DNA from: Candidatus Gastranaerophilales bacterium
GTDB taxonomy: Bacteria; Cyanobacteriota; Vampirovibrionia; Gastranaerophilales; Gastranaerophilaceae
Assembly: GCA_900766355.1 (NCBI GenBank)
Contig: CAAFVD010000064.1
Span: 100,585 to 164,584 of the forward strand
Direction: 5' to 3'
Length of the DNA: 64,000 nucleotides
The notes under the pieces were generated by a model. It ran no database searches. It saw only the letters and a list, made by a program, of their open reading frames with translations, and had not been told where the DNA came from. Made by a program: the position numbers and the translations under genes. Positions 3,436-61,398 of the stretch are shown here, in pieces (position 1 is the first letter of the stretch; the number at the start of each line of letters is the position of its first letter).

Positions 3436-3747
3436 TTAATTAAAATCGTAATCTGTATCTTCTAATTCTTTCGCTTTTCTCATTTTTTCAGAACGAAGCA
3501 TATTATTAAATTTTTTGAATTGTCTTTCTAGTTTGTAGCAGAACAAATCAAGCGATTCAAAAGCTTTTTTCTTAGCATCACTTACTTCTGGAGAATGCTT
3601 TTCTGCAAAATCACAAACTGTATCTTTAAGCTTATGTCTAGCTTTATCTCCTGATTCAGGAGCATATAAAACTCCAGCAATAATTCCTCCGACAACACCT
3701 GCCAAAAGACCTAAACCAAAACCTATTGAAGACTTATTTTCACTCAT
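3436..3747 (-). CDS. YtxH-like small membrane-associated protein
   Basis: 103 aa. GFGLGLLAGVVGGIIAGVLYAPESGDKARHKL is a second copy of the YtxH N-terminal motif. Confidence 0.55.
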   Translation of the reverse strand: MSENKSSIGFGLGLLAGVVGGIIAGVLYAPESGDKARHKLKDTVCDFAEKHSPEVSDAKKKAFESLDLFCYKLERQFKKFNNMLRSEKMRKAKELEDTDYDFN

Positions 3748-3765
3748 GTTTCACCTCTCAATAAA

Positions 3766-4131
3766 TTATACCATATTTTTTATTGTTGACAACTCTCCTG
3801 ATAGGGCTTTTATTAATTTGTATCCCAATAGAAGTTTTTTGCCTTTTTTCTTTAGGAATATAAAAAATACCCACTCTAAGATACCAAGTATTTGTTTCAG
3901 AATCAACATTTGTTGATGACGTTTTATTTTATTGCAGTATTTGTCAATGATTAGTTTTATGTCACTAAAGATTTTTTCAACTTTATTAGAACGAGTTTCT
4001 AACCATTCATTTGTATCGTTTACGGCTGAATTGAACCATAAAATCTTCATATCAATATTGATTAAATATGAAACGATTATAAATGTTACTAATATTTGTA
4101 AAATAAAGATTATCGCTATTAAAAAAAACAT
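3766..4131 (-). CDS. Hypothetical membrane protein
   Basis: 121 aa ORF with an N-terminal hydrophobic segment. No recognisable motif. Confidence 0.3.
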   Translation of the reverse strand: MFFLIAIIFILQILVTFIIVSYLINIDMKILWFNSAVNDTNEWLETRSNKVEKIFSDIKLIIDKYCNKIKRHQQMLILKQILGILEWVFFIFLKKKGKKLLLGYKLIKALSGELSTIKNMV

Positions 4132-7972: not shown

Positions 7973-9586
7973 CTAATCATCAGGATAAGAGAAGAAATTA
8001 TGTAAACTTCTTATAATTTTGTTTTTGTAATGACGAGTTTTGTAAGCAGGTTTTGTTGATTTTGATTTGCATACTTTATTTTTTTGAACTTTTTCTTTTC
8101 TTACTTTTTTAGATTGTTGAGTTTTTGCTATAGATGTTTGTTCTGATTTTATTTGTTCAACTTTAACATCTTTTGATACAGCTTTGTCGTCTTTCTTCAA
8201 CTCAACAGAGCCGTCAACGATATTTTTACCGATAGCTTTTTCTAAATTTGCACGAGCTGTATTAAATTCATACAAAGTATTATAATATTGTACTCTTGCG
8301 TTTGCGTATTGGACTTGAGCTTCTTTTAACTCGACAGGATTGCCGACACCAACTTTGTATCTGCCAAAAGATAGGTCATAGTTTTCTTTTGCTTGTTTTA
8401 CTTGTAGTGTGGATACTGGTATTTGGTTTTTCTTTTCTATAAGAGAATAAAACGCATTTTGGATTTCTAAATATATGTCATTTTGAGTCGAATGTGAATT
8501 CGCAATCTCTTTAGTGTGCATAGATTGAGCTTCTTTTATTTGGTTACGAATAAGCATACCGTTAATTTGTGGGAAATTTAAGTAAGCACCTACGTTGTAA
8601 CCATAGTTAGATGTAAAAGAGCGACCACCGATTGAATAGTTGCCGTCAAATTCTAAAGTCGGATACCAAGCTTTTTTGGTTAATTTTACGTTTTGATTTG
8701 CAGATTGAACTTTAACTTCTGATAATTTGTAATCTGGACGTGCTTCTTTTGCGATATCAACGGCTTGAGTTAATGTTAAATTACAAGGATTGTATTTTAG
8801 TTTATCTAAAATATTATACTTGTTCATATATGGTAGCCCCATAGCATTGTTCAATTTAGCCATAGCAATATCTACTGCGTTTTGTGCTTGTATCAGTGCA
8901 AGTTTTGCAGAACTTAAATTAACCTCAGCTATCGTCATATCTATTTTAGGGTTAGTTCCAGCTTGATAAAAGGCTTTTGCTTGTTCATAGAAGTTTTGAT
9001 ATTGTTCTACAGTTTCTTCTGCTACTTGTTCTTGTTCATTTGCAAGTAGAACTCCATAATATGCAGTTTTTACATCTCTGATTACGGTATTAACAGTTTC
9101 TGTAAGTATTATTTTAAATTGTTCGTTCTCTAATTTAGATATTGTAACTCTGTTTTGAGTAACACCAAAGTCGTATAGCATCTCTGAAACAGAAATTGTA
9201 CCTAATACATAATAATTGAATACGAGGTTTCTATTGAATACATCTGATAATTGAAGTTGTTTTATACGAGTATAACCTGTTTGCCATGATATTGAAGGAA
9301 ACCAACTAGACCAAGCTTGTTTTATTCTATAGTCTGACGCAAAGACATCTTGAATTGCAGCTTGAATTTTAGGGTTGTTCCCTAATGCAAATTTCAAGCA
9401 ATCTTCTAAATTAACATCAATATATTTAGCTACTCCACCTTCTATCACAAGTTCATCTTTATTAGGCAGCACCATATTAGATTCAGGATATTCGTCAGTT
9501 TTTATTGTGTTTCCCAAGTCAGATGCCATAACAGGCGAGATAATGAAGGTTATAAGTAAGAATATAGTCAGGAGTTTTTTAGTCAT
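7973..9586 (-). CDS. Outer-membrane efflux protein (TolC/OprM family)
   Basis: 537 aa with a signal peptide and two OEP repeats. It is the last gene of the RND operon. Confidence 0.8.
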   Translation of the reverse strand: MTKKLLTIFLLITFIISPVMASDLGNTIKTDEYPESNMVLPNKDELVIEGGVAKYIDVNLEDCLKFALGNNPKIQAAIQDVFASDYRIKQAWSSWFPSISWQTGYTRIKQLQLSDVFNRNLVFNYYVLGTISVSEMLYDFGVTQNRVTISKLENEQFKIILTETVNTVIRDVKTAYYGVLLANEQEQVAEETVEQYQNFYEQAKAFYQAGTNPKIDMTIAEVNLSSAKLALIQAQNAVDIAMAKLNNAMGLPYMNKYNILDKLKYNPCNLTLTQAVDIAKEARPDYKLSEVKVQSANQNVKLTKKAWYPTLEFDGNYSIGGRSFTSNYGYNVGAYLNFPQINGMLIRNQIKEAQSMHTKEIANSHSTQNDIYLEIQNAFYSLIEKKNQIPVSTLQVKQAKENYDLSFGRYKVGVGNPVELKEAQVQYANARVQYYNTLYEFNTARANLEKAIGKNIVDGSVELKKDDKAVSKDVKVEQIKSEQTSIAKTQQSKKVRKEKVQKNKVCKSKSTKPAYKTRHYKNKIIRSLHNFFSYPDD

Positions 9587-12500
9587 GTTTTTTCTCCTGT
9601 ATTTTTTGTATGCCTTTTTTAACTAGCCCTAGTCCTGATTTGCTGAGAGTTTTTAATCCACCAGCATAATACCAATCTTTCATTTTGTTAATAAGAACAA
9701 AGAATGCTGGAACTAGGATACTACCAATAAACGATACGGCAATCATACCACCAAAAACTGTCATACCTATAGAATGACGACTTCCTGCACCTGCACCATG
9801 TGCAAATACTAATGGTAGCAAACCTAAAATAAACGCAATATTTGTCATCATAACGGCTCTAAATCTTAGTTTAGCAGCTTGCATTGCTGCATCAATATAA
9901 TTCATACCGTCTTTTTCCATAGCATCTTTAGCAAACTCAACAATCAAAATTGCTTGTTTTGTACCTAAACCTACTAACATAACCAAACCGATTTGAGCAT
10001 ATATATCTAGTGAGTATCCTGAAACATATTGGAAGAATAACGCACCAACAAGAGCTACAGGAGATATTAGCATTACAGCGATAGGTAGTGTCCAACTTTC
10101 ATATAAAGCTACTAGGAATAAATATACAAAAGTTAAAGCCATTGCCAAAATTGGTCCGATTTGTCCAGAAGATTCTTTTTCTTGTAAAGATGTTCCTGAC
10201 CAGCTATATCCCATATCTTTTGGTAAAAGCTTATCAGACAATCGTTCCATTTCCTTCATAGCTTGTCCTGAACTTATATTGTTTGCAGGTGTTCCACTAA
10301 TCATGACTGATGGGTATAGGTTGTAACGTGTAATTGTATATGGTCCAACAATATTTTCTGTATGAGCAACTGAAGTTAGAGGAACCATATTACCTAAATT
10401 ATTTTTTACATACAATTTGCTCAAATCTGTAGGTTTAACACGATATGGAGCATCTGCTTGAATATATACACGATAAACTCTACCAAACTTGTTGAAATCG
10501 TTTACATAAGTAGAACCTAAGAAGCCTGCAAGCGTATTATAAATAGAAGATATATCAACACCTTGTGACATTGCTTTTTCTTCATCTATAACTATTTTAA
10601 GTTGAGGTAATGATGCACTATAAGTTGTAAATAATCTTGAAAACATAGGACTTTGAGAAGCCTCTGCCATGAATTTTTTACTAACATCAAACAACTGTTC
10701 AGGAGTTCTATCTCCTTTATCTAAAAGTCTGTATTCAAACCCACCAAACATACTCATACCTGAGATTGATGAAGGCGGGAAGGTTGCTACAGTAGCTTCT
10801 GTGAAATTAGCAAATTCTTTTTTTATTTCACGTTGAATAGCCTCCATAGATAATGATGCTTTTCGTCTGTGTGACCATTCATCTAGTTCAGATACAATAA
10901 GTACCATGTTTTCACCAGAAAAACCTGCAACTTCTAATGTACTTTTTACTCCAGGAATTTTCGCAATACGTTCAGCAACTTCAGCCCCTACAATATCACT
11001 TCGAGATACAGAAGCTCCGTCAGGAAGTTGTAATTGTGTGAATAATGCACCTTTATCTTCTGTAGGTAAGAAACCTTTTGGTATTAAGTAAAACATAAAT
11101 AAAATAAATACAAATACCAATAATAAAGTTTTAAGAGTCTTTTCTGGAGCTTCTACAAAATAACGAACTGTATTTAGATATTTGTCCCTAACTGAAAGAA
11201 ACCAATCATCAAACTTTTGTATAAATTCAAAGTCAGCTTTTTCAGAACCATCTTTTAGGATTATTGAACATAAAGCTGGTGATAATGTTAAAGCTACTAC
11301 TGTTGATAAACCTATAGACGTAGCTAGGCATAGTGCAAATTGTCTAAACATTTGTCCTGTAATACCCGTCATAAAAGATACAGGAACAAATACGGCCATT
11401 AAAACTAGAGATGTGGCAACAACCGCACCGAAAACTTCTTCCATCGTGATTTCGGTTGCCTCTTTTGGTGATTTACCGTCTTGAATGTGTCTTTGTGTGT
11501 TTTCAAGTACAACAATAGCGTCATCAACAACCAGACCAACTGCGAGAACTAATCCGAATAATATTAATAGGTTTATTGAAAATCCAAATAAGCCCATAAA
11601 TATAAATACTCCGATTAAAGATACAGGAATCGCACAGAACGGAATAAATGCAGAACGAGCAGTTCCTAAGAATAAATAAGTAACGATACTTACAAGTAAT
11701 ATTGCAAGCCCAATTGCACTAATAACTTCGTTGATAGACTCTCTAACAAACATTGTATCGTCATATTGTATGTTATAAGTAATATCGTTAGGGAATTTTT
11801 TACTCAATTCTTGCATCTTAGCTTTAGCTCTATTAACCAAATCTATTGAATTTGCATTTGGTAATTGAGTAATAGATATCATTGCACTATTTTTTCCTTC
11901 AACACGAGATATTGAAGAATAGTTGTTTGCACCCATTTCGACTCTAGCTATATCTTTAACTTTGACATTCGCACCGTTTGGTTTTGCTTTTACAATAATG
12001 TTTTCAAATTCTTCTACTGTTTTTAAACGTCCTTTTGTTCTCAATGTATATTTCAACACTTGAGGGTCTGTCATTGGTTCTACCCCAAGGTTACCAGCTG
12101 GAGCTTGCACGTTTTGTGCTGATATTGCATTTTGAACATCTGTCGATGAAATATTCAAACTAGCCATTTTTTGAGGGTTTAACCAAACTCTCATTGAGTA
12201 TTCACCAGCACCAAAAACTCCAACTTCTGCAACACCTTTTAATCTTGCTAGTTCATCTTTCAAGAACATTGTTGAGTAGTTAGCTAAGTATAATGAATCA
12301 TAAGTTCCATGAGGTGAACGAATAGACATCATTAAACATCCAGGGCCACCTGTAGATTTTTTTACGGTTAAGCCGTATCTTCTTACTTCTTCAGGTAATC
12401 TAGGAGTTACTAATTGTAGCTGGTTTTGTACGTTTACTAATGCCATATCAGGGTCTGTACCAACTGCAAAATATATTGTTAGTTTATAAGAATCGTTTCT

Positions 12501-12749
12501 TGAATCTGATGACATGTAAATCATGTTTTCAACACCATTCAATTGAAGCTCTACAGGTGCTGCAATTGTTGATGCAACTACATCAGAACTCGCACCGTTA
12601 TATGTTGCAGAAACAATAACCTGTGGTGGTGTAATTGATGGATATTCTTCAACAGGTAAGGATACCATTGCGATTAAACCTGCAAGAATAATTACAAGAG
12701 AAATAATGATTGCTAATTTTGGTCGTCTTACAAATAAATTTCCAGCCAC
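9579..12749 (-). CDS. RND multidrug efflux transporter (AcrB/HAE1 family)
   Basis: 1056 aa with the 12-TM AcrB architecture and the conserved MAGNLFVRRPKLAIIISL... N-terminus. Overlaps the OMP gene by 8 nt. Confidence 0.95.
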   Translation of the reverse strand: MAGNLFVRRPKLAIIISLVIILAGLIAMVSLPVEEYPSITPPQVIVSATYNGASSDVVASTIAAPVELQLNGVENMIYMSSDSRNDSYKLTIYFAVGTDPDMALVNVQNQLQLVTPRLPEEVRRYGLTVKKSTGGPGCLMMSIRSPHGTYDSLYLANYSTMFLKDELARLKGVAEVGVFGAGEYSMRVWLNPQKMASLNISSTDVQNAISAQNVQAPAGNLGVEPMTDPQVLKYTLRTKGRLKTVEEFENIIVKAKPNGANVKVKDIARVEMGANNYSSISRVEGKNSAMISITQLPNANSIDLVNRAKAKMQELSKKFPNDITYNIQYDDTMFVRESINEVISAIGLAILLVSIVTYLFLGTARSAFIPFCAIPVSLIGVFIFMGLFGFSINLLILFGLVLAVGLVVDDAIVVLENTQRHIQDGKSPKEATEITMEEVFGAVVATSLVLMAVFVPVSFMTGITGQMFRQFALCLATSIGLSTVVALTLSPALCSIILKDGSEKADFEFIQKFDDWFLSVRDKYLNTVRYFVEAPEKTLKTLLLVFVFILFMFYLIPKGFLPTEDKGALFTQLQLPDGASVSRSDIVGAEVAERIAKIPGVKSTLEVAGFSGENMVLIVSELDEWSHRRKASLSMEAIQREIKKEFANFTEATVATFPPSSISGMSMFGGFEYRLLDKGDRTPEQLFDVSKKFMAEASQSPMFSRLFTTYSASLPQLKIVIDEEKAMSQGVDISSIYNTLAGFLGSTYVNDFNKFGRVYRVYIQADAPYRVKPTDLSKLYVKNNLGNMVPLTSVAHTENIVGPYTITRYNLYPSVMISGTPANNISSGQAMKEMERLSDKLLPKDMGYSWSGTSLQEKESSGQIGPILAMALTFVYLFLVALYESWTLPIAVMLISPVALVGALFFQYVSGYSLDIYAQIGLVMLVGLGTKQAILIVEFAKDAMEKDGMNYIDAAMQAAKLRFRAVMMTNIAFILGLLPLVFAHGAGAGSRHSIGMTVFGGMIAVSFIGSILVPAFFVLINKMKDWYYAGGLKTLSKSGLGLVKKGIQKIQEKKHD

Positions 12750-13963
12750 TATTTTCTCCCTATTCCTTTTATTTTATTGAAAATTCTTATAAAAATATTT
12801 TGTTTTTGTTCTTGTTTTTGGTCGGTAACTTCTTGTTCTACAATTTTTACAGGCATACCTGTAACAACCTTTTGTAATCCTGAAGTTATAACAGTATCAC
12901 CTATTTTTAAACCGCTATCAACTAATGTGTATTCGCCTTCTTGTCCAAGAGTTTTTATATAAACCAGTTTTGGTAAGTTGTTACTGTCTAACATATATAC
13001 AAATTTACCTTCTTGGTTTTCTTGTACAGCTTTTGAAGGGATTGTAGGGACTGCAAAATCATTGTTTGAATATATAATTATACGTCCAAAATCTCCTGAT
13101 ATAAGTCCGTCATCTTCGTTTGAGAAAGTCGCACGCATTGTAATCGTACCAGTTGATTCGTCAACTCTATTATCTCTAAAGTCTTGTACCCCAAAGTGCG
13201 AATACTTGTTACCTGAGCTATAAACATATTCTACTTTTCTGTTTACATTAGCACTTCCATCAATTGTTGTAAGTGTTGAAAATTGGTCTGTATCAAGAGG
13301 AAATGTTACGTACATAGGTCTTGTACTGTATATTGTTGTTAATGCACCAGAATTAATTGTTACATAGTTGCCTACTGTAACTGTAATAATTCCGACTCTA
13401 CCTGAAACAGGCGCTTTTACTTTAGTATAAGATAGATTTCTCATCGCATCTCTATAGTTCATCTCTGCATAATTAGTAGATGCTCTGTATAAATCTCTTT
13501 GAGAAACTGCATTATCATATTCTGAACGTGCGATATAATCTTGTTTTACTAACTGTTGAGCCCTTCTCGCTTGTTTATCGTAATAAACCTGTTGAGCTCT
13601 AGCTTTTTGTACATCAGCTCTAGCTCTATCTACTGCTATTTGATATTCTTGTGGTTCAATTTCGAATAAAACTTGTCCAGCTTTTACGTAATCACCTTCT
13701 TTAAAATAGCTTTTTGTTAAGTATCCGTTTATTCTGGCATTAACTTGTATTTGTGATTTTGATGTTACACGAGCAGGTATTTCATAAGATTTTTTTCTAC
13801 TTGTTTCAAAAACCTTTGTAACTGTAACTGGTGGAGTCATTCCTGCTTTCATCTTTACTTGCATCATATGAGTTCCAAATGCTGCAAATAAGTATCTAAA
13901 CAATATTGCAGAAAAGATAATAGCCATTAATATAAAAATTTTTTTCTTCATATCCTCTCCCAA
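12749..13963 (-). CDS. RND efflux membrane fusion protein (AcrA/HlyD family)
   Basis: 404 aa with an N-terminal TM, a coiled-coil hairpin and beta-barrel/MP domains. Its stop overlaps the RND start. Confidence 0.85.
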   Translation of the reverse strand: MGEDMKKKIFILMAIIFSAILFRYLFAAFGTHMMQVKMKAGMTPPVTVTKVFETSRKKSYEIPARVTSKSQIQVNARINGYLTKSYFKEGDYVKAGQVLFEIEPQEYQIAVDRARADVQKARAQQVYYDKQARRAQQLVKQDYIARSEYDNAVSQRDLYRASTNYAEMNYRDAMRNLSYTKVKAPVSGRVGIITVTVGNYVTINSGALTTIYSTRPMYVTFPLDTDQFSTLTTIDGSANVNRKVEYVYSSGNKYSHFGVQDFRDNRVDESTGTITMRATFSNEDDGLISGDFGRIIIYSNNDFAVPTIPSKAVQENQEGKFVYMLDSNNLPKLVYIKTLGQEGEYTLVDSGLKIGDTVITSGLQKVVTGMPVKIVEQEVTDQKQEQKQNIFIRIFNKIKGIGRK

Positions 13964-38623: not shown

Positions 38624-39511
38624 ATGGTTTTGATATTTATTTTGGGGCTAATATTGGGTAGTTTTTATAATGTTCTAATTATAAGAACTCTTAACGGTGA
38701 AAGTATAATCTTTCCACCTTCTCATTGTATGGAGTGTGATACTCCGATTGAATGGAAATATAAAATCCCAATACTATCATATTTGTTTTTGAAAGGAAAA
38801 TGCAAATATTGTGGTAAGCCGATAGATATTATGTATCCTATTGTTGAACTTGTTACAGGTTTGATATTTTTGTTTTTGTATCTAAAATACGGTATTTCGT
38901 TTCAATTTTTTGTAGCAACGATTTGTACATCATTATTTCTTATACTTGCCGGCATGGATATCAAATCCAATATGATATGCTCAAAATATGCAGCTTATCT
39001 GATACCATGTTCTATTTTGTTTAATTATACGGATATCTTGAATTCAATATACGGTGGCGCAGTTTGTTTTGGTATAACCAAAATCCTGTTATGGATTTCA
39101 AATAAATGCAAAAAAGAATTTCTTGGAGATGGAGATTTACATTTGTTCACTGCGTTTGGGTGTCTTGTCGGTCTGTCGCATTTGTTGATATTATCGGCTT
39201 TGGCGCTTTTGTTTATCGGTATAACTGCATTTGTTAAATACATAAATCGTTGTATAAATCAGAAGAATTATAGAACAATTCTCTATTTGTTGTGGTTTGG
39301 AGTGGCTTATTTGTTGGTATTTTTTAGCCATATAGGGTTTATAAATCCATGCTTATATATAAGAGTATTAATATTTGTAAACCTGATTTGTGCATTATTT
39401 GTTGAGGTTAAAAATTTGATTTCTAATTTTAAAAAATCTCAAAACCCTTTATTTATCCCTGTTTCGCCATATATATTATTGGCTGTGTTATTTTATTTTT
39501 TGTTGTTCTAG
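38624..39511 (+). CDS. pilD: Type IV prepilin peptidase (A24 family, PilD-like)
   Basis: 295 aa. N-terminal Cys4 (CMECD...CKYCG) and the catalytic Asp regions including GDGDLHLF (GGGDxKL-like). Confidence 0.8.
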   Translation: MVLIFILGLILGSFYNVLIIRTLNGESIIFPPSHCMECDTPIEWKYKIPILSYLFLKGKCKYCGKPIDIMYPIVELVTGLIFLFLYLKYGISFQFFVATICTSLFLILAGMDIKSNMICSKYAAYLIPCSILFNYTDILNSIYGGAVCFGITKILLWISNKCKKEFLGDGDLHLFTAFGCLVGLSHLLILSALALLFIGITAFVKYINRCINQKNYRTILYLLWFGVAYLLVFFSHIGFINPCLYIRVLIFVNLICALFVEVKNLISNFKKSQNPLFIPVSPYILLAVLFYFLLF

Positions 39512-39530
39512 TTCAAATAATGTAAACCTC

Positions 39531-39559
39531 TTGTCAATTCTTAAAAAAATGACTATAAT
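39531..39559 (+). promoter_or_regulatory. Strong sigma-70-like promoter upstream of csoR-like gene
   Basis: TTGTCA (39531-36), an exact 17-nt spacer, then TATAAT (39554-59). Confidence 0.5.
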
Positions 39560-39598
39560 AAACATGCTATTTATATTTCGGCTAGTGTAAAATCTTAA

Positions 39599-39628
39599 CA
39601 GGAAGGTTATCCTACCTGTTTTTTTTAC
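39599..39628 (+). promoter_or_regulatory. 20-bp near-palindrome + T9 in csoR leader (candidate operator and/or intrinsic terminator/attenuator)
   Basis: caggaaggttatcctacctg is 16/20 self-complementary and followed by ttttttttt. It lies between the promoter and the csoR RBS. Confidence 0.4.
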
Positions 39629-39659
39629 GGAAATTTAGGCTAACAATACGGAGAGTAGA

Positions 39660-39929
39660 ATGCACGATCATAAAAATGTTTCAAGATTACTAAAAACGGC
39701 TCGTGGGCAGATAGATGGTATTATAAAGATGATAGAAGAAGATAGAGATTGTGTAGATGTTAGTTATCAAATTTCTGCCGCACAGTCAATATTGAAGAAG
39801 GTTAATATAGAGATTCTTTCATCTCATCTTTCTCATTGTGTAAAAGAGTCTTTTGAACATGACAACCCTAAAGATAAAGAAGAAAAAATTAATGAATTTA
39901 TTACTTTGTTGAACAAAGTGCTTAAGTAA
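39660..39929 (+). CDS. CsoR/RcnR/FrmR-family metal-sensing transcriptional repressor
   Basis: 89 aa. TARGQIDGIIKMIEEDRDCVDVSYQISAAQSAL...HLSHC carries the family W-X-Y-Z Cys/His positions. Confidence 0.8.
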   Translation: MHDHKNVSRLLKTARGQIDGIIKMIEEDRDCVDVSYQISAAQSILKKVNIEILSSHLSHCVKESFEHDNPKDKEEKINEFITLLNKVLK

Positions 39930-40770
39930 TTTTTGCTAAAATCAATTTGTCGAAGTTAGTTATTGTTTTAATTTTTGTTTCAATTTCTGATTCTTTTATT
40001 TCTGTAATAGTTTTATATTTTCCAACTATTGAGACTTTATCTTCAGATGTGTTCCAAACAAGAAGTTCGTTGAATTCAATATCGTTTTTTAAACTTTCAA
40101 TGATTTTGTTTTTAATAGATTTGTTTTCTGTATCAATAAGTATTGCAGTTGTTGATTTGATTAGGTTGTATGCCCAAATACAAATAACAGTACCACCCAA
40201 GAAGCCGACAACAGGGTCTAGTGCTATCCAACCAAGATATTTGCCTGCAAATAGTGCAGATATTGCAAAGACGGAAGTCATCGCATCTGCCAATATGTGC
40301 ATATATGCTGATTTAAAATTGTAATCTTCGTGTTCTTGGTTGTGTTTGTGTCCAATATGATGTTGATGACCTCCCATAATAAGAATACATACACTGTTTA
40401 CAATTAAGCCTATAATCGCAATAATAATAGCTTCGTTAAAACAAATGTTTAGGGGGTTAAATATTCTATCAATTGATTCAAATATGATTAAAATACCTGT
40501 TAAACCAAGTAGGATTGAACTTGCAAATCCTGATAATGTACTGAATTTACCTGTACCAAAAGCAAATTTATCAGAAAATTTTAATTTTCTTATCAAAACA
40601 TAAGTTATAAATGTTATAGAGAGAGCAAAAGCGTGTGTTCCCATGTGCCAACCATCAGCGAATAAAGCCATTGAGTGCGTAATATAACCTATTACAATCT
40701 CAATAAACATTGTAATTATGGTTAGAATAATAACTAATAATGTTCTTTTTTCTCGAGATTGGTCTGTCAT
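39922..40770 (-). CDS. Cation diffusion facilitator (CDF) family metal efflux transporter
   Basis: 282 aa. 6 TM, HxxxD-type metal-site motifs (GHQHHIGHKH loop), and a C-terminal cytoplasmic domain. Confidence 0.85.
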   Translation of the reverse strand: MTDQSREKRTLLVIILTIITMFIEIVIGYITHSMALFADGWHMGTHAFALSITFITYVLIRKLKFSDKFAFGTGKFSTLSGFASSILLGLTGILIIFESIDRIFNPLNICFNEAIIIAIIGLIVNSVCILIMGGHQHHIGHKHNQEHEDYNFKSAYMHILADAMTSVFAISALFAGKYLGWIALDPVVGFLGGTVICIWAYNLIKSTTAILIDTENKSIKNKIIESLKNDIEFNELLVWNTSEDKVSIVGKYKTITEIKESEIETKIKTITNFDKLILAKIT

Positions 40771-40801
40771 TTTGATACTCCTCCGAATTTTTTACCAATA
40801 A

Positions 40802-40824
40802 ATATGGGGCAAAATGCCCCATAT
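40802..40824 (-). terminator. Hairpin terminator after Cys-rich protein gene
   Basis: atatggggc-aaaat-gccccatat is a perfect 9-bp GC-containing stem. Confidence 0.45.
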
Positions 40825-40831
40825 TCCTTAG

Positions 40832-41110
40832 CTATTTTTCGCAATCACATTTAATGAATTTTTTTACAAAACTTTCGTGTGATTTTTGACATGCAGGACA
40901 TGTACATTTACAGTCTTTACAGGTACATTTAGGGTTGTGACATTTACAATCTGCACCACATTTACAATCGCCTTTTCTACAACAATGACAATCACATTTT
41001 TTTTGACAACCGCATGTACATTGGTCAGCAGTTGTTGTTGCTGCGTTTGCAAACCCTACAGTTGCAAACATAAGAGAAAGAGCAAATAATCCAATCGCTA
41101 ATTTTTTCAT
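40832..41110 (-). CDS. Secreted cysteine-rich metallothionein-like protein (24 Cys in ~68-aa mature part)
   Basis: 92 aa. Signal peptide MKKLAIGLFALSLMFATVGFANA, then CTCGCQKKCDCHCCRKGDCKCGADCKCHNPKCTCKDCKCTCPAC... RBS ggagaa. Monocistronic. Confidence 0.6.
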   Translation of the reverse strand: MKKLAIGLFALSLMFATVGFANAATTTADQCTCGCQKKCDCHCCRKGDCKCGADCKCHNPKCTCKDCKCTCPACQKSHESFVKKFIKCDCEK

Positions 41111-41130
41111 AATGTTCTCCTTTTTTTTAT

Positions 41131-41155
41131 TACTACACCCTACGGGGGTCTAGTA
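41131..41155. promoter_or_regulatory. GC-rich pseudo-palindrome (candidate CsoR-type operator) upstream of Cys-rich gene
   Basis: TACTAcACCCtacGGGgGTcTAGTA sits just downstream of a minus-strand TTGACA...TATATT promoter. GC-rich in an AT-rich intergenic region. Confidence 0.35.
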
Positions 41156-41220
41156 ATATAATAACCCCTTTTGTTTTTTTGTCAAGAGGTTAAAATAAAA
41201 GTTTTTGGTATAATGTTGTA

Positions 41221-41991
41221 ATGATACAAGATATTGCACCACATGTTTTTTATAATCATTATAAAAATACTAAACCTTCAAAAGGTGATTGTATTCTATC
41301 ATTTGTTGGCAAAACCGTTGCTATAACGGATTTTAGCAATACCCCAGTGAGGTATCTGTTCTCTATTGATGATACAAAATATTTCTTATCAATGGAAGAA
41401 ATTAATGCTGAATATGTACCTATAGGCGATTATAAGGAGAAAACTACAAAATTTATCCTTGAAACGGCACATCAAATATACCGTTGGTATTCGCATAACA
41501 AATTTTGTGGTCAATGTGGTACTCCACTTGAACATTCGGATAAAGAGAGAATGTTGCATTGTTCAAAATGTCATCTTCAAATATATCCGAAAATTTGTCC
41601 GGCCGTAATAGTTGGAGTTATTAATAAAGATAAATTGTTGCTTACAAGATACAATGGTCGTGAGTATAAACATTATTCCTTGATTGCAGGATACAATGAA
41701 ATCGGTGAAACTATAGAAGAAACAGTCCATCGTGAGGTCATGGAAGAAGTCGGATTAAAAGTTAAAAATCTCAAATTCTACAAAAGTCAGCCTTGGGCTT
41801 TTTCTGAAACTTTATTAATGGGCTTTTGGGCAGAATTGGATTCAGATAGTGAGATTACACTTGATAGAACAGAGCTCGAAGAAGCTAATTGGTTTAAGGC
41901 AGAAGAAATTGAACTGAAAAATGACGGCATAAGCCTTACTCATGAGATGATAACCTTGTTTAAGAAAAAGTCTATCGCTTCATTAATTTAA
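41221..41991 (+). CDS. nudC: NAD+ diphosphatase (NADH pyrophosphatase) NudC
   Basis: 256 aa. Zinc ribbon CGQCGTPL...CSKCH plus a Nudix box. TGgTATAAT extended -10 lies upstream. Confidence 0.85.
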   Translation: MIQDIAPHVFYNHYKNTKPSKGDCILSFVGKTVAITDFSNTPVRYLFSIDDTKYFLSMEEINAEYVPIGDYKEKTTKFILETAHQIYRWYSHNKFCGQCGTPLEHSDKERMLHCSKCHLQIYPKICPAVIVGVINKDKLLLTRYNGREYKHYSLIAGYNEIGETIEETVHREVMEEVGLKVKNLKFYKSQPWAFSETLLMGFWAELDSDSEITLDRTELEEANWFKAEEIELKNDGISLTHEMITLFKKKSIASLI

Positions 41992-48733: not shown

Positions 48734-48798
48734 AATTTGATTATTGTTATAAAAATAATTAAAAAAGGTTTTAGCATATTGCTAAAACCTTTAAAATT

Positions 48799-48888
48799 CG
48801 GAAAAGGTGGGATTCGAACCCACGGTGCAGATTGCTCCACACAACACCTTAGCAGGGTGCCGCCTTAAGCCTACTCGGCCACTTTTCC
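48799..48888 (-). tRNA. tRNA-Ser (anticodon GCU)
   Basis: Reverse complement is GGAAAAGTGGCCGAGTAGG...CACCCTGCTAAGGTG...GGGTTCGAATCCCACCTTTTCCG. 7-bp acceptor stem, long variable arm, GCT anticodon loop. No encoded CCA. Confidence 0.85.
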
Positions 48889-48945
48889 ACAAGCTCCTGT
48901 CAAAGTATTTATATGGTAGCATAAACTTTTATTTTTGAAAAGGAC

Positions 48946-61317: not shown

Positions 61318-61398
61318 TGTCGACGGGGGGACTTGAACCCCCACAGCTCTCGCCACATGCACCTCAAGCATGCGTGTCTACCATTCCACCACATCGAC
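61318..61398 (-). tRNA. tRNA-Leu (anticodon GAG)
   Basis: Reverse complement is GTCGATGTGGTGGAATGGTAGACACGCATGCTTGAGGTGCATG-long arm-GGGGGTTCAAGTCCCCCCGTCGACA. The acceptor stem pairs 7/7, and the anticodon loop is TTGAGGT. Confidence 0.8.

What the first reader, a model, noticed from the sequence alone, without database searches (positions are those of the whole stretch)
40832..41110. Signal-peptide-bearing metallothionein-like protein (24 Cys) in a CsoR-CDF metal locus
Bacterial metallothioneins (SmtA/BmtA) are cytoplasmic. This 92-aa ORF has a clear Sec signal peptide followed by a ~68-aa mature region packed with CxC/CC/CxxC motifs. It is monocistronic with its own terminator and sits next to a CDF exporter and a CsoR/RcnR repressor. 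A periplasmic Cys-rich metal (probably Cu(I)) sponge would be an unusual resistance component.
Basis: partly seen in the sequence, partly recalled or inferred. Interest (0 to 1): 0.6.

Follow-up and report, generated by a model that had tools for sequence, protein, structure and literature searches.

The report
Exported metallothionein-like protein, CsoR-controlled
A gut relative of cyanobacteria encodes a small, exported protein that is more than a quarter cysteine and sits behind a metal-sensor operator; it is probably a periplasmic metal sponge, a place where natural metallothionein-like proteins are not known, but no metal binding has been shown.

Summary
The ORF is real: 40832..41110 on the minus strand, 92 aa. 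It has 19 Cys, not 24. It has a Sec-type signal peptide (MKK, a 17-residue hydrophobic core, ANA|A) and a 69-aa mature part that is 28% Cys with ten CxC motifs. It is under strong purifying selection (dN/dS 0.04).

It matches no Pfam, NCBIfam or PDB family. Searches of 1.8 and 5.8 billion proteins found only 7 representatives and 14 clusters. All are unnamed and come from gut metagenomes or MAGs; the four GTDB genome hits are Melainabacteria/Gastranaerophilales.

The strongest new evidence is comparative. In 10 of 11 loci (9 of 10 lineages) a TTGACA/-10 promoter is followed directly by a CsoR-type operator (ACCCC-N3-4-GGGGT), and a CsoR-family gene lies within 2 kb. The nearest outside homologues of that regulator sit in copA-copZ-csoR operons with the same operator type.

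Best reading: a metal-derepressed, Sec-exported, metallothionein-like periplasmic metal sink.

The metal is unresolved. Ancestry and operator point to Cu(I). In this window's clade the regulator has lost the Cu-shell Tyr and gained an N-terminal His, and a DmeF-type Co/Ni CDF lies 61 nt downstream. Those features point to Ni, Co or Zn.

Metal binding, export and induction are all untested.

The parts
40832..41110 (-). CDS of the 92-aa Cys-rich exported protein, stop codon included. Signal peptide is codons 1-23 (41042..41110). Predicted mature 69 aa is 40835..41041, with 19 Cys, 3 His and 13 Lys.
   Evidence: purifying selection; no Pfam, NCBIfam or PDB family
41117..41122 (-). Shine-Dalgarno AAGGAG, 6 nt before the ATG
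   Evidence: sequence read directly
41129..41157 (.). CsoR-type operator: the 29-bp pseudo-palindrome ATTACTA-GACCCCCGTAGGGTG-TAGTAAT, starting right after the -10 hexamer. It is the only ACCC..GGGGT site in the window.
   Evidence: conserved in L001-L005, L009, L011, L013, L015, L022; same type as operators of copA-csoR operons and the cst operator in PMC8643695
41158..41185 (-). Sigma-70-type promoter, TTGACA-16-TATTAT (11 of 12 matches)
   Evidence: the -35 TTGA.A is invariant in the 8-locus alignment
40794..40832 (-). Stem-loop starting at the stop codon (core 40800..40826). Terminator or attenuator-like, with a weak U-tract.
   Evidence: -24.1 kcal/mol, z -5.1; not called as a terminator
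39922..40770 (-). CDF transporter of the DmeF (Co/Ni efflux) type with a His-rich loop, 61 nt downstream on the same strand. Probably read through from the operator-controlled promoter.
   Evidence: PF01545; NF033827, 275.4 bits against a cut-off of 250; no promoter-like site in the gap
39660..39929 (+). CsoR/RcnR-family repressor, 89 aa: His2, Asp30, Cys31, His56, His59, Cys60. It is convergent with the CDF and overlaps its 3' end by 8 bp.
39531..39559 (+). Promoter-like site for the regulator gene (TTGTCA-17-TATAAT), with no operator nearby

Best explanation
The gene encodes a new, lineage-restricted family of Sec-exported, metallothionein-like proteins. It is the direct target of the neighbouring CsoR-family repressor.

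Proposed mechanism, marking what is shown and what is inferred:
1. Without metal, the repressor tetramer sits on the 29-bp operator that starts immediately after the -10 hexamer and blocks transcription. The operator and promoter are shown in sequence and conserved; binding is inferred.
2. When the cytosolic effector metal rises, it binds the Cys31-His56-Cys60 site and the repressor leaves the DNA. This is inferred from the family.
3. The 92-aa precursor is exported unfolded through Sec and cleaved after ANA. The signal architecture is shown; export is inferred.
4. The organism is a diderm; the anoxic gut setting and a reducing periplasm are assumed, not measured. There the 69-aa Lys-rich mature chain, with 19 thiols mostly in CxC motifs, wraps several thiophilic metal ions in metal-thiolate clusters. 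This buffers the periplasm and limits re-entry of metal. This step is inferred.
5. In this window's clade a DmeF-type CDF lies 61 nt downstream. It would pump divalent metal from the cytosol into the same compartment, so pump and sink may act together. This step is inferred.

Which metal is unresolved. The family's ancestry points to Cu(I). The window clade's sensor changes and its CDF point to Ni, Co or Zn.
For: Composition and pattern: the mature part is 28% Cys with 10 CxC motifs and only 2 aromatic residues. Net side-chain charge is positive in all 10 family members compared (+6 here, +1 to +8 overall); that this surplus balances thiolate clusters is my inference, not a test.

Cys number differs between homologues: 15, 19, 21, 22 or 23, and odd in 7 of 11. 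CxC modules are gained and lost. That fits thiolate clusters better than a fixed disulfide scaffold.

AlphaFold2 gives no confident fold (pLDDT 53, pTM 0.29), as expected for an apo-thionein, although the alignment is shallow.

Regulation: promoter plus ACCCC-N3-4-GGGGT operator is conserved in 10 of 11 loci (9 of 10 lineages), including proteins only 35-50% identical. A CsoR-family gene lies directly downstream in L004, L009, L013, L015 and L022, 1.5 kb away in L011, and beyond the CDF in the window clade. L005-L008 carry the operator too, but those contigs end before a regulator could be seen. The one locus without an operator (L010) also lacks the regulator.

The regulator keeps the C-H-C triad aligned to Cu(I)-CsoR structures 4M1P, 2HH7 and 4ADZ. 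Its closest outside homologues (56-59% identity) lie in copA-copZ-csoR operons with the same operator type.

Diderm envelope: OEP/AcrB/MFP and an MlaD-like gene in the window, and LpxK in L009.

The signal peptide -3/-1 rule holds in all homologues, and there is no twin-arginine motif.

Precedent, partly from my own recollection: M. tuberculosis RicR, a CsoR paralogue named as a second Cu(I) sensor in PMC11672702, controls the metallothionein MymT (the RicR-mymT link is recalled, not read here). RicR is also the best NCBIfam match of this regulator.
Against: There is no experimental or direct computational evidence of metal binding.

There is no homology to any metallothionein family. PDB metallothionein matches have E of about 6 and Pfam gives none.

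SignalP was not run.

The redox state of the periplasm is unknown; if the organism has a Dsb system the thiols would be oxidised.

The family is tiny, so the comparative sample is about 10 lineages.

The regulator in this window lacks the near-invariant second-shell Tyr of Cu sensors, so its effector could even be non-metal.

CDF co-transcription is not shown. In L003 a 193-bp spacer with an extended -10-like TGATATAAT separates the two genes.
Confidence: 0.6

Rival explanations
1. It is a disulfide-rich secreted peptide with no metal role, for example a cationic antimicrobial or bacteriocin-like peptide or a cross-linked envelope protein like the chlamydial small Cys-rich proteins.
For: The product has a signal peptide, is small, cationic (net +6) and Cys-rich. 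The family is lineage-restricted, as bacteriocins often are.
Against: It is controlled by a conserved CsoR-type operator with a linked metal-sensor-family gene in 10 of 11 loci. The Cys number is odd and variable, and dense CxC motifs are poorly suited to a fixed disulfide framework. No immunity, transport or maturation genes are adjacent. The NCBIfam bacteriocin hit has E = 0.055 and covers only the signal peptide. No knottin, defensin or chlamydial Pfam family matches. AlphaFold2 finds no confident compact fold.
Confidence: 0.1
2. It is a sacrificial thiol buffer against reactive sulfur species, oxidants or electrophiles in the periplasm, and the regulator senses a non-metal inducer, as CstR and FrmR do in the same family.
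For: The window regulator has DRDC, as CstR does in structure 7MQ1, and lacks the Cu second-shell Tyr. The CsoR family includes persulfide and formaldehyde sensors (PMC8643695). The gut is sulfide-rich. Rubrerythrin and hybrid-cluster-protein genes lie near some loci.
Against: The Y-position His56 is invariant, whereas persulfide sensors are x-C-x-C (PMC8643695). Regulators in L011 and L022 keep the Cu-type Tyr. No sulfurtransferase, rhodanese or persulfide reductase genes are nearby. A DmeF-type metal pump lies in the same transcription direction.
Confidence: 0.1
3. The chemistry is the same (periplasmic metal-thiolate protein) but the role is supply rather than defence: a storage or chaperone protein that holds metal for periplasmic or membrane metalloenzymes, like Csp1 in methanotrophs.
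For: Csp1 is an exported Cys-lined copper store (PMC7558416). The gene is the main or only visible target of the regulator.
Against: CsoR-family de-repression at high metal is the logic of detoxification. No cuproenzyme or nickel-enzyme genes are adjacent in any locus. In one clade it is paired with an efflux CDF.
Confidence: 0.1
4. The hydrophobic N-terminus is an uncleaved membrane anchor, so the Cys-rich domain is tethered to the outer face of the inner membrane rather than free in the periplasm.
For: No signal-peptide predictor could be run, and the hydrophobic core is fairly long at 17 residues.
Against: Small residues at -3 and -1 (A-x-A, V-x-A, S-x-A, T-x-A) are conserved in every homologue although the core sequence drifts. 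Other predicted secreted proteins of these genomes have the same MKKL...A-x-A style.
Confidence: 0.05

Closest known systems
MymT under RicR (Mycobacterium tuberculosis copper metallothionein controlled by a CsoR paralogue)
   Same: A small Cys-rich thionein-type gene whose promoter carries a CsoR-family operator. RicR is the best NCBIfam match of the regulator here (64 bits, below its cut-off).
   Different: MymT is cytosolic, has no signal peptide, is about 53 aa, and has no sequence similarity to this protein. RicR has a multi-gene regulon. The RicR-MymT relationship is from my own knowledge plus PMC7558416 and PMC11672702.
SmtA/BmtA bacterial metallothioneins (PF02069), including PmtA
   Same: Bacterial Cys/His-rich metal-cluster proteins paired with a metal-sensing repressor. 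SmtA comes from the sister lineage, Cyanobacteria.
   Different: No Pfam match. SmtA has a zinc-finger-like fold with 9 Cys and is cytosolic. PmtA lacks a signal peptide (PMC11237414). Their regulator is SmtB of the ArsR family, not CsoR.
Csp1 copper storage protein
   Same: An exported, Cys-rich, multi-Cu(I)-binding bacterial protein (PMC7558416).
   Different: Csp1 is a pre-folded four-helix bundle exported by Tat. This protein has a Sec-type signal with no RR motif, no predicted helical bundle and no Pfam hit.
Bufferins (MNIO-modified RiPP metallophores, DUF2282)
   Same: Sec-signal-bearing small Cys-containing periplasmic peptides that chelate copper under stress (PMC11626156).
   Different: Bufferins need an adjacent MNIO (DUF692) enzyme and partner, which use O2, and have only a few Cys converted to thiooxazoles. 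No such genes occur in any of the loci here, and there is no DUF2282 match.
Periplasmic metal sponges and chaperones (SilE/PcoE, CusF, CopG)
   Same: The proposed role: binding excess metal in the periplasm as part of a resistance module. This comparison is from my own knowledge.
   Different: Those proteins use Met/His ligands (SilE, PcoE, CusF) or a single CxCC cluster in a folded domain (CopG). None is a 28%-Cys thionein, and there is no sequence match.
Canonical copA-copZ-csoR operons of Firmicutes
   Same: The regulator is 56-59% identical, and the operator type is the same, sited just after the -10.
   Different: The regulated gene is a P-type ATPase and HMA chaperone there. Here it is an exported Cys-rich protein, with a CDF added in one clade.

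Membership tests
Metallothionein (operational class) | Low molecular mass, Cys about 20-30% arranged in CxC/CC/CxxC motifs, few aromatic residues | tested here: met
   69-aa mature chain with 19 Cys (28%), 10 CxC, 1 CC, 3 CxxC and 2 Phe
Metallothionein (operational class) | Binds several metal ions in metal-thiolate clusters | not testable with these tools
   Needs metal titration, ICP-MS or ESI-MS, or spectroscopy of the purified mature peptide
Metallothionein (operational class) | Expression induced by metal | tested here: inconclusive
   A conserved CsoR-type operator overlaps the promoter, but neither the inducer nor induction has been measured
SmtA/BmtA bacterial metallothionein (PF02069) | Match to the family profile | tested here: not met
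   No Pfam hit at E <= 0.1 apart from a spurious PARP match. PDB profile search gives metallothioneins at E of about 6.
Csp1/Csp3 copper storage proteins | Four-helix bundle lined with Cys; Tat signal for Csp1 | tested here: not met
   No Pfam hit. The AlphaFold2 model has only two 4-residue helices at pLDDT 53. The N-terminus is MKK with no RR.
Bufferin / MNIO RiPP | DUF2282-type precursor next to MNIO (DUF692) and partner genes | tested here: not met
   No such domains in the precursor or in neighbours in the window or 10 related loci
Sec (SPase I) signal peptide | Positively charged n-region, hydrophobic h-region, small residues at -3 and -1, no lipobox, no twin-arginine | tested here: met
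   MKK / LAIGLFALSLMFATVGF / ANA|A. The same architecture occurs in all homologues. This was judged by inspection; SignalP was not available.
CsoR/RcnR family (regulator 39660..39929) | PF02583 fold | tested here: met
   93.4 bits against a cut-off of 22.8
Cu(I)-sensing CsoR (x-C-H-C) | Cys-His-Cys first shell | tested here: met
   C31, H56 and C60 align to the ligands of 4M1P, 2HH7 and 4ADZ and are invariant in the linked regulators aligned or tabulated
Cu(I)-sensing CsoR (x-C-H-C) | Near-invariant second-shell Tyr before the first Cys, and no conserved N-terminal ligand (PMC11672702, PMC8643695) | tested here: not met
   The window has Asp30 and an invariant His2. Tyr is kept only in the L011 and L022 regulators.
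Cu(I)-sensing CsoR (x-C-H-C) | Neighbouring copA/copZ | tested here: not met
   No HMA or P-type ATPase in the loci examined (and the locus tables). It is present next to the closest Firmicutes homologues.
H-C-H-C Ni/Co sensors (InrS, NcrB/NreA type) | His at W plus C-H-C, no Tyr at A, linked to Ni/Co efflux | tested here: inconclusive
   His2-C31-H56-C60 with no Tyr, and a DmeF neighbour. Overall similarity to InrS is lower (31 bits) than to Cu CsoRs (53 bits), and whether His2 occupies the W position is unproven.
DmeF-type CDF (gene 39922..40770) | NCBIfam equivalog NF033827 above its cut-off | tested here: met
   275.4 bits against 250, and PF01545 at 107 bits. Substrate was not tested.

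The most novel reading that the evidence does not exclude
This is the first natural family of exported (periplasmic) metallothioneins. In gut Gastranaerophilales a two-gene sensor-and-sink module, made of a CsoR-family repressor and a Sec-exported 15-23-Cys thionein, takes the place that copA/copZ occupies next to the closest related CsoRs. Some lineages, including this window's, have retuned the sensor (Tyr to Asp/Glu, plus an N-terminal His) and recruited a DmeF-type CDF. That would switch or broaden the module from Cu(I) to Ni, Co or Zn.
Probability: 0.45. Interest if true: 0.72.

Novelty: new variant of a known kind. Interest (0 to 1): 0.6.

Why it matters
Bacterial metallothioneins are rare, and the known ones (SmtA/BmtA, PmtA, MymT) lack export signals. 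Periplasmic metal buffering is known only from Met/His-rich sponges, folded chaperones, Tat-exported Csp1 and RiPP bufferins.

A Sec-exported thionein would add a new solution to envelope metal stress. It would work only where the periplasm stays reducing, so it could say something about the envelope redox chemistry of anaerobic diderms.

It also gives a compact, testable sensor/operator/effector module from an uncultured human- and animal-gut lineage. The family shows apparent retuning of a CsoR sensory site between close relatives.

The mature peptide is short enough to synthesise, so the central claim is cheap to test.

A practical point: gene callers mis-frame or miss these genes (L015, L011), so the family is under-counted in protein databases.

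Tried and rejected
- Pfam, NCBIfam and PDB sequence searches of the Cys-rich protein gave nothing significant. The PARP and JUQZ hits cover only the signal peptide.
- AlphaFold2 with a 10-sequence alignment gave pLDDT 53. I therefore ran no fold search, because matches to such a model would be meaningless.
- Rfam on 39300..41500 found no riboswitch, in particular no NiCo/czcD element, before the CDF.
- The terminator scan called nothing in 39400..41400. The hairpin after the stop codon was found only by folding.
- The metagenome-contig scan returned only a duplicate of L002. A wider alignment (A5) was too diverse for pattern design.
- A radical-SAM gene near the L004 and L010 members was considered as a RiPP maturase. 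I rejected it because its motif resembles a DNA-repair-type radical-SAM enzyme and it is absent from the other loci.
- A lipoprotein reading was rejected: there is no conserved lipobox Cys.
- A second operator before the regulator gene or the CDF was sought and not found.
- Literature searches for a periplasmic or signal-peptide-bearing bacterial metallothionein, or any Melainabacteria metallothionein, found no description of a natural exported one; the few papers returned concern other topics.

Full report
**1. The observation**

The ORF at 40832..41110 on the minus strand is real and encodes 92 aa:
MKKLAIGLFALSLMFATVGFANA|ATTTADQCTCGCQKKCDCHCCRKGDCKCGADCKCHNPKCTCKDCKCTCPACQKSHESFVKKFIKCDCEK

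All 19 lie in the 69-aa part after the predicted cleavage site. That part is 28% Cys, with 10 CxC, 1 CC, 3 CxxC, 3 His, 13 Lys and only 2 aromatic residues. An AAGGAG Shine-Dalgarno lies 6 nt before the ATG.

The gene is under strong purifying selection:
- Against L001 and L002 there are 9 synonymous and 2 non-synonymous differences, giving dN/dS 0.04.
- Against L003, synonymous sites are saturated while dN is 0.15.

No other ORF in the 64 kb has this composition apart from out-of-frame noise.

**2. Export signal**

The N-terminus has a charged n-region (MKK), a 17-residue hydrophobic core and ANA|A. It has no twin-arginine motif and no lipobox. In all 10 homologues inspected the core drifts by conservative changes, while a small residue is kept at -3 and -1 (ANA, VNA, ASA, AFA, AYA, AIA, SYA, TFA).

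The organism is a diderm:
- The window carries an AcrB-type RND pump, a membrane-fusion protein and an OEP (TolC-like) gene at 7973..13963, plus an MlaD-like gene.
- A related locus carries lpxK.

The expected destination is therefore the periplasm. SignalP could not be run, so export is an inference.

**3. Family and taxonomy**

The protein matches no Pfam, NCBIfam or PDB family.

| Search | Database size | Result |
|---|---|---|
| Exhaustive profile search | 1.84 billion representatives | 7 hits |
| Profile search with a diverse alignment | 5.8 billion proteins | 14 clusters, none named |

Among 185,579 GTDB species genomes, four matched. All are Melainabacteria/Gastranaerophilales MAGs. Other members come from gut metagenomes.

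Two further members turned up only through genomic context. One was called in the wrong frame (L015, true gene 3623..3916). One was not called at all (L011, 5826..6131 minus). Protein databases therefore under-count the family.

Sixteen Cys columns are invariant across proteins 35-74% identical. The total number of mature Cys varies: 15, 19, 21, 22 or 23, and it is odd in 7 of 11. The variation comes from gain and loss of CxC modules.

AlphaFold2 gives no confident fold (pLDDT 53, pTM 0.29).

**4. Regulation: the main new evidence**

On the minus strand, upstream of the gene, lies TTGACA-16-TATTAT (41185..41158). It is followed directly by a 29-bp pseudo-palindrome, ATTACTAGACCCCCGTAGGGTGTAGTAAT (41157..41129). 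This is the only ACCC..GGGGT site in the window.

The same layout, a promoter followed by ACCCC-N3-4-GGGGT, occurs upstream of the homologue in L001-L005, L009, L011, L013, L015 and L022.

Position of the CsoR-family gene relative to the Cys-rich gene:

| Loci | Regulator position |
|---|---|
| L004, L009, L013, L015, L022 | Directly downstream |
| L011 | 1.5 kb away |
| Window, L001, L003 | Beyond a CDF gene |
| L005-L008 (operator present) | Contig ends before a regulator could be seen |
| L010 (no operator) | None |

This co-variation across roughly ten lineages is good comparative evidence that the Cys-rich gene is the direct target of the regulator. It is the only candidate target found in the 64-kb window.

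**5. What the regulator is**

It belongs to PF02583 (93 bits). Cys31, His56 and Cys60 align with the Cu(I) ligands of the CsoR structures 4M1P, 2HH7 and 4ADZ.

Its closest homologues outside this lineage are 56-59% identical. They lie in copA-copZ-csoR or copA-csoR operons of Firmicutes. The operators there (ACACCCCCCGGGGGGTGT and ATACCCCACGGGGGTGTAGT) are of the same type and in the same position after the -10. The S. mitis cst operator quoted in PMC8643695 is also of this type. By descent, the module looks like a copper CsoR system whose target has become an exported Cys-rich protein.

Cu(I)-CsoRs are defined as x-C-H-C with near-invariant second-shell Tyr and Glu and no N-terminal ligand (PMC11672702, PMC8643695). 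H-C-H-C marks the Ni/Co sensors InrS and NcrB/NreA, and InrS lacks the Tyr (PMC4235346). The regulators linked to this family compare as follows:

| Regulator | Residue before the first Cys | His2 present |
|---|---|---|
| L011, L022 | Tyr | No |
| L013 | His | No |
| L015 | Asp | No |
| Window clade, L009 | Asp | Yes |
| L004 | Glu | Yes |

His2 occurs only in regulators that have Asp or Glu at this position.

The window clade alone has a CDF inserted between the two genes. That CDF scores above the NCBIfam cut-off for DmeF, a Co/Ni efflux CDF (275.4 against 250). It starts 61 nt after the Cys-rich ORF.

Between the two genes lies a strong hairpin (-24.1 kcal/mol, z -5.1) with a poor U-tract. 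There is no promoter-like site in the gap and no riboswitch. Partial read-through is therefore plausible but unproven. CDFs are not known to move Cu(I) (my own knowledge).

My judgement:
- For the family as a whole, Cu(I) is the most likely inducer.
- For this window I rate Cu(I) and Ni/Co/Zn about equal, at roughly 40% each. The remainder goes to a non-metal inducer.

**6. Mechanism proposed**

1. The apo-repressor occupies the operator that overlaps the transcription start.
2. Cytosolic metal binds the C-H-C site, possibly with His2, and releases the repressor.
3. The precursor is exported unfolded by Sec and cleaved after Ala23.
4. The periplasm of this gut organism is assumed to be reducing; that has not been measured. 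There the Lys-rich, 19-thiol chain would fold around several thiophilic ions as metal-thiolate clusters.
5. The net side-chain charge of +6 roughly balances 19 thiolates plus 6-7 M(II). This charge argument is an inference.
6. The result is buffering of the periplasm. In this clade the protein would also accept metal pumped out of the cytosol by the DmeF-type CDF.

Shown: the sequence features, their conservation, and the regulator and operator linkage. Inferred: DNA binding, the inducer, export, the thiol redox state and metal binding.

**7. Rivals**

- **Disulfide-rich antimicrobial or structural peptide.** The variable and mostly odd Cys count argues against it. So do the dense CxC motifs, the metal-sensor-type regulation, and the absence of immunity or maturation genes.
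- **Thiol buffer against reactive sulfur species or oxidants, with a CstR-like sensor.** The DRDC motif fits. The invariant Y-position His and the Tyr-type regulators in sister lineages argue against it.
- **Storage or chaperone role, as for Csp1.** This cannot be separated from detoxification by sequence. De-repression logic and the efflux partner favour defence.
- **Uncleaved membrane anchor.** This is unlikely given the conserved -3/-1 residues.

**8. Comparison with known systems**

Functionally, the closest precedent is a thionein under a CsoR-family repressor, as with RicR and MymT in M. tuberculosis. The closest exported Cys-based copper binders are Csp1 (Tat-exported, four-helix bundle) and the bufferins (MNIO-modified RiPPs) (PMC7558416, PMC11626156). 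The defining features of the SmtA/BmtA, Csp and bufferin families were each tested and not met.

Known bacterial metallothioneins lack signal peptides; PmtA, for example, has none (PMC11237414). Full-text searches found no description of a natural periplasmic or signal-peptide-bearing bacterial metallothionein.

**9. Verdict**

The ORF is real, conserved, unannotated and restricted to one lineage. The Cys count, the copper assignment and the role of the CDF need correction.

I classify it as a new variant of a known kind: a thionein-type metal binder moved to the periplasm and wired to a CsoR-family sensor. Confidence in the exported metal-sink reading is about 0.6. Interest is 0.6.

Noticed in passing
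L003:5699-5912 and L003:6269-6445: In the Gastranaerophilales MAG locus L003, the Cys-rich gene and its promoter are bracketed by long imperfect inverted repeats (68-nt arms 85% complementary, 34-nt arms 94% complementary, and further arms outside). They look like MITE-like insertions or a mobile cassette. The downstream copy adds an extended -10-like TGATATAAT in front of the CDF gene.
   Followed up: partly
L015:3623-3916 (+) and L011:5826-6131 (-): Gene callers read the L015 family member in the wrong frame (a Val/Asn/Thr-rich 81-aa product) and did not call the L011 member at all. These Cys-codon-rich genes are therefore under-represented in protein databases.
   Followed up: yes
window 7973-13963 (-): A tripartite RND efflux operon: a HlyD-type membrane-fusion protein (12749..13963), an AcrB-family pump (9579..12749) and an OEP/TolC-like outer-membrane factor (7973..9586). 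I used it only as evidence for a diderm envelope; the substrate is unknown.
   Followed up: partly
window 41195-41223 (+): The divergently transcribed NudC-like NAD(+) diphosphatase gene (41221..41991) has a TGGTATAAT extended -10-like element ending about 8 nt before its ATG. This suggests a leaderless or near-leaderless mRNA, or a mis-assigned start.
   Followed up: no
window 39922-39929: The CDF gene and the convergent CsoR-family gene overlap by 8 bp at their 3' ends, so transcription of one runs into the other. Antisense interference is possible.
   Followed up: no
L022:4184-4489, L013:4301-4609, L022:375-1922: In the L013/L022 lineage the thionein-regulator pair sits next to rubrerythrin, a Crp-family regulator, a hybrid-cluster (prismane) protein and a PAS histidine kinase. 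This is an oxidative or nitrosative-stress neighbourhood.
   Followed up: no
L010:2050-2415: One family member (P0013) has neither the operator nor an adjacent regulator, and it carries a long acidic C-terminal tail. It may be expressed constitutively or regulated in some other way.
   Followed up: partly
window 48798-48889 and 61318-61398 (-): Two tRNA genes: tRNA-Ser(GCU) and tRNA-Leu(GAG).
   Followed up: yes
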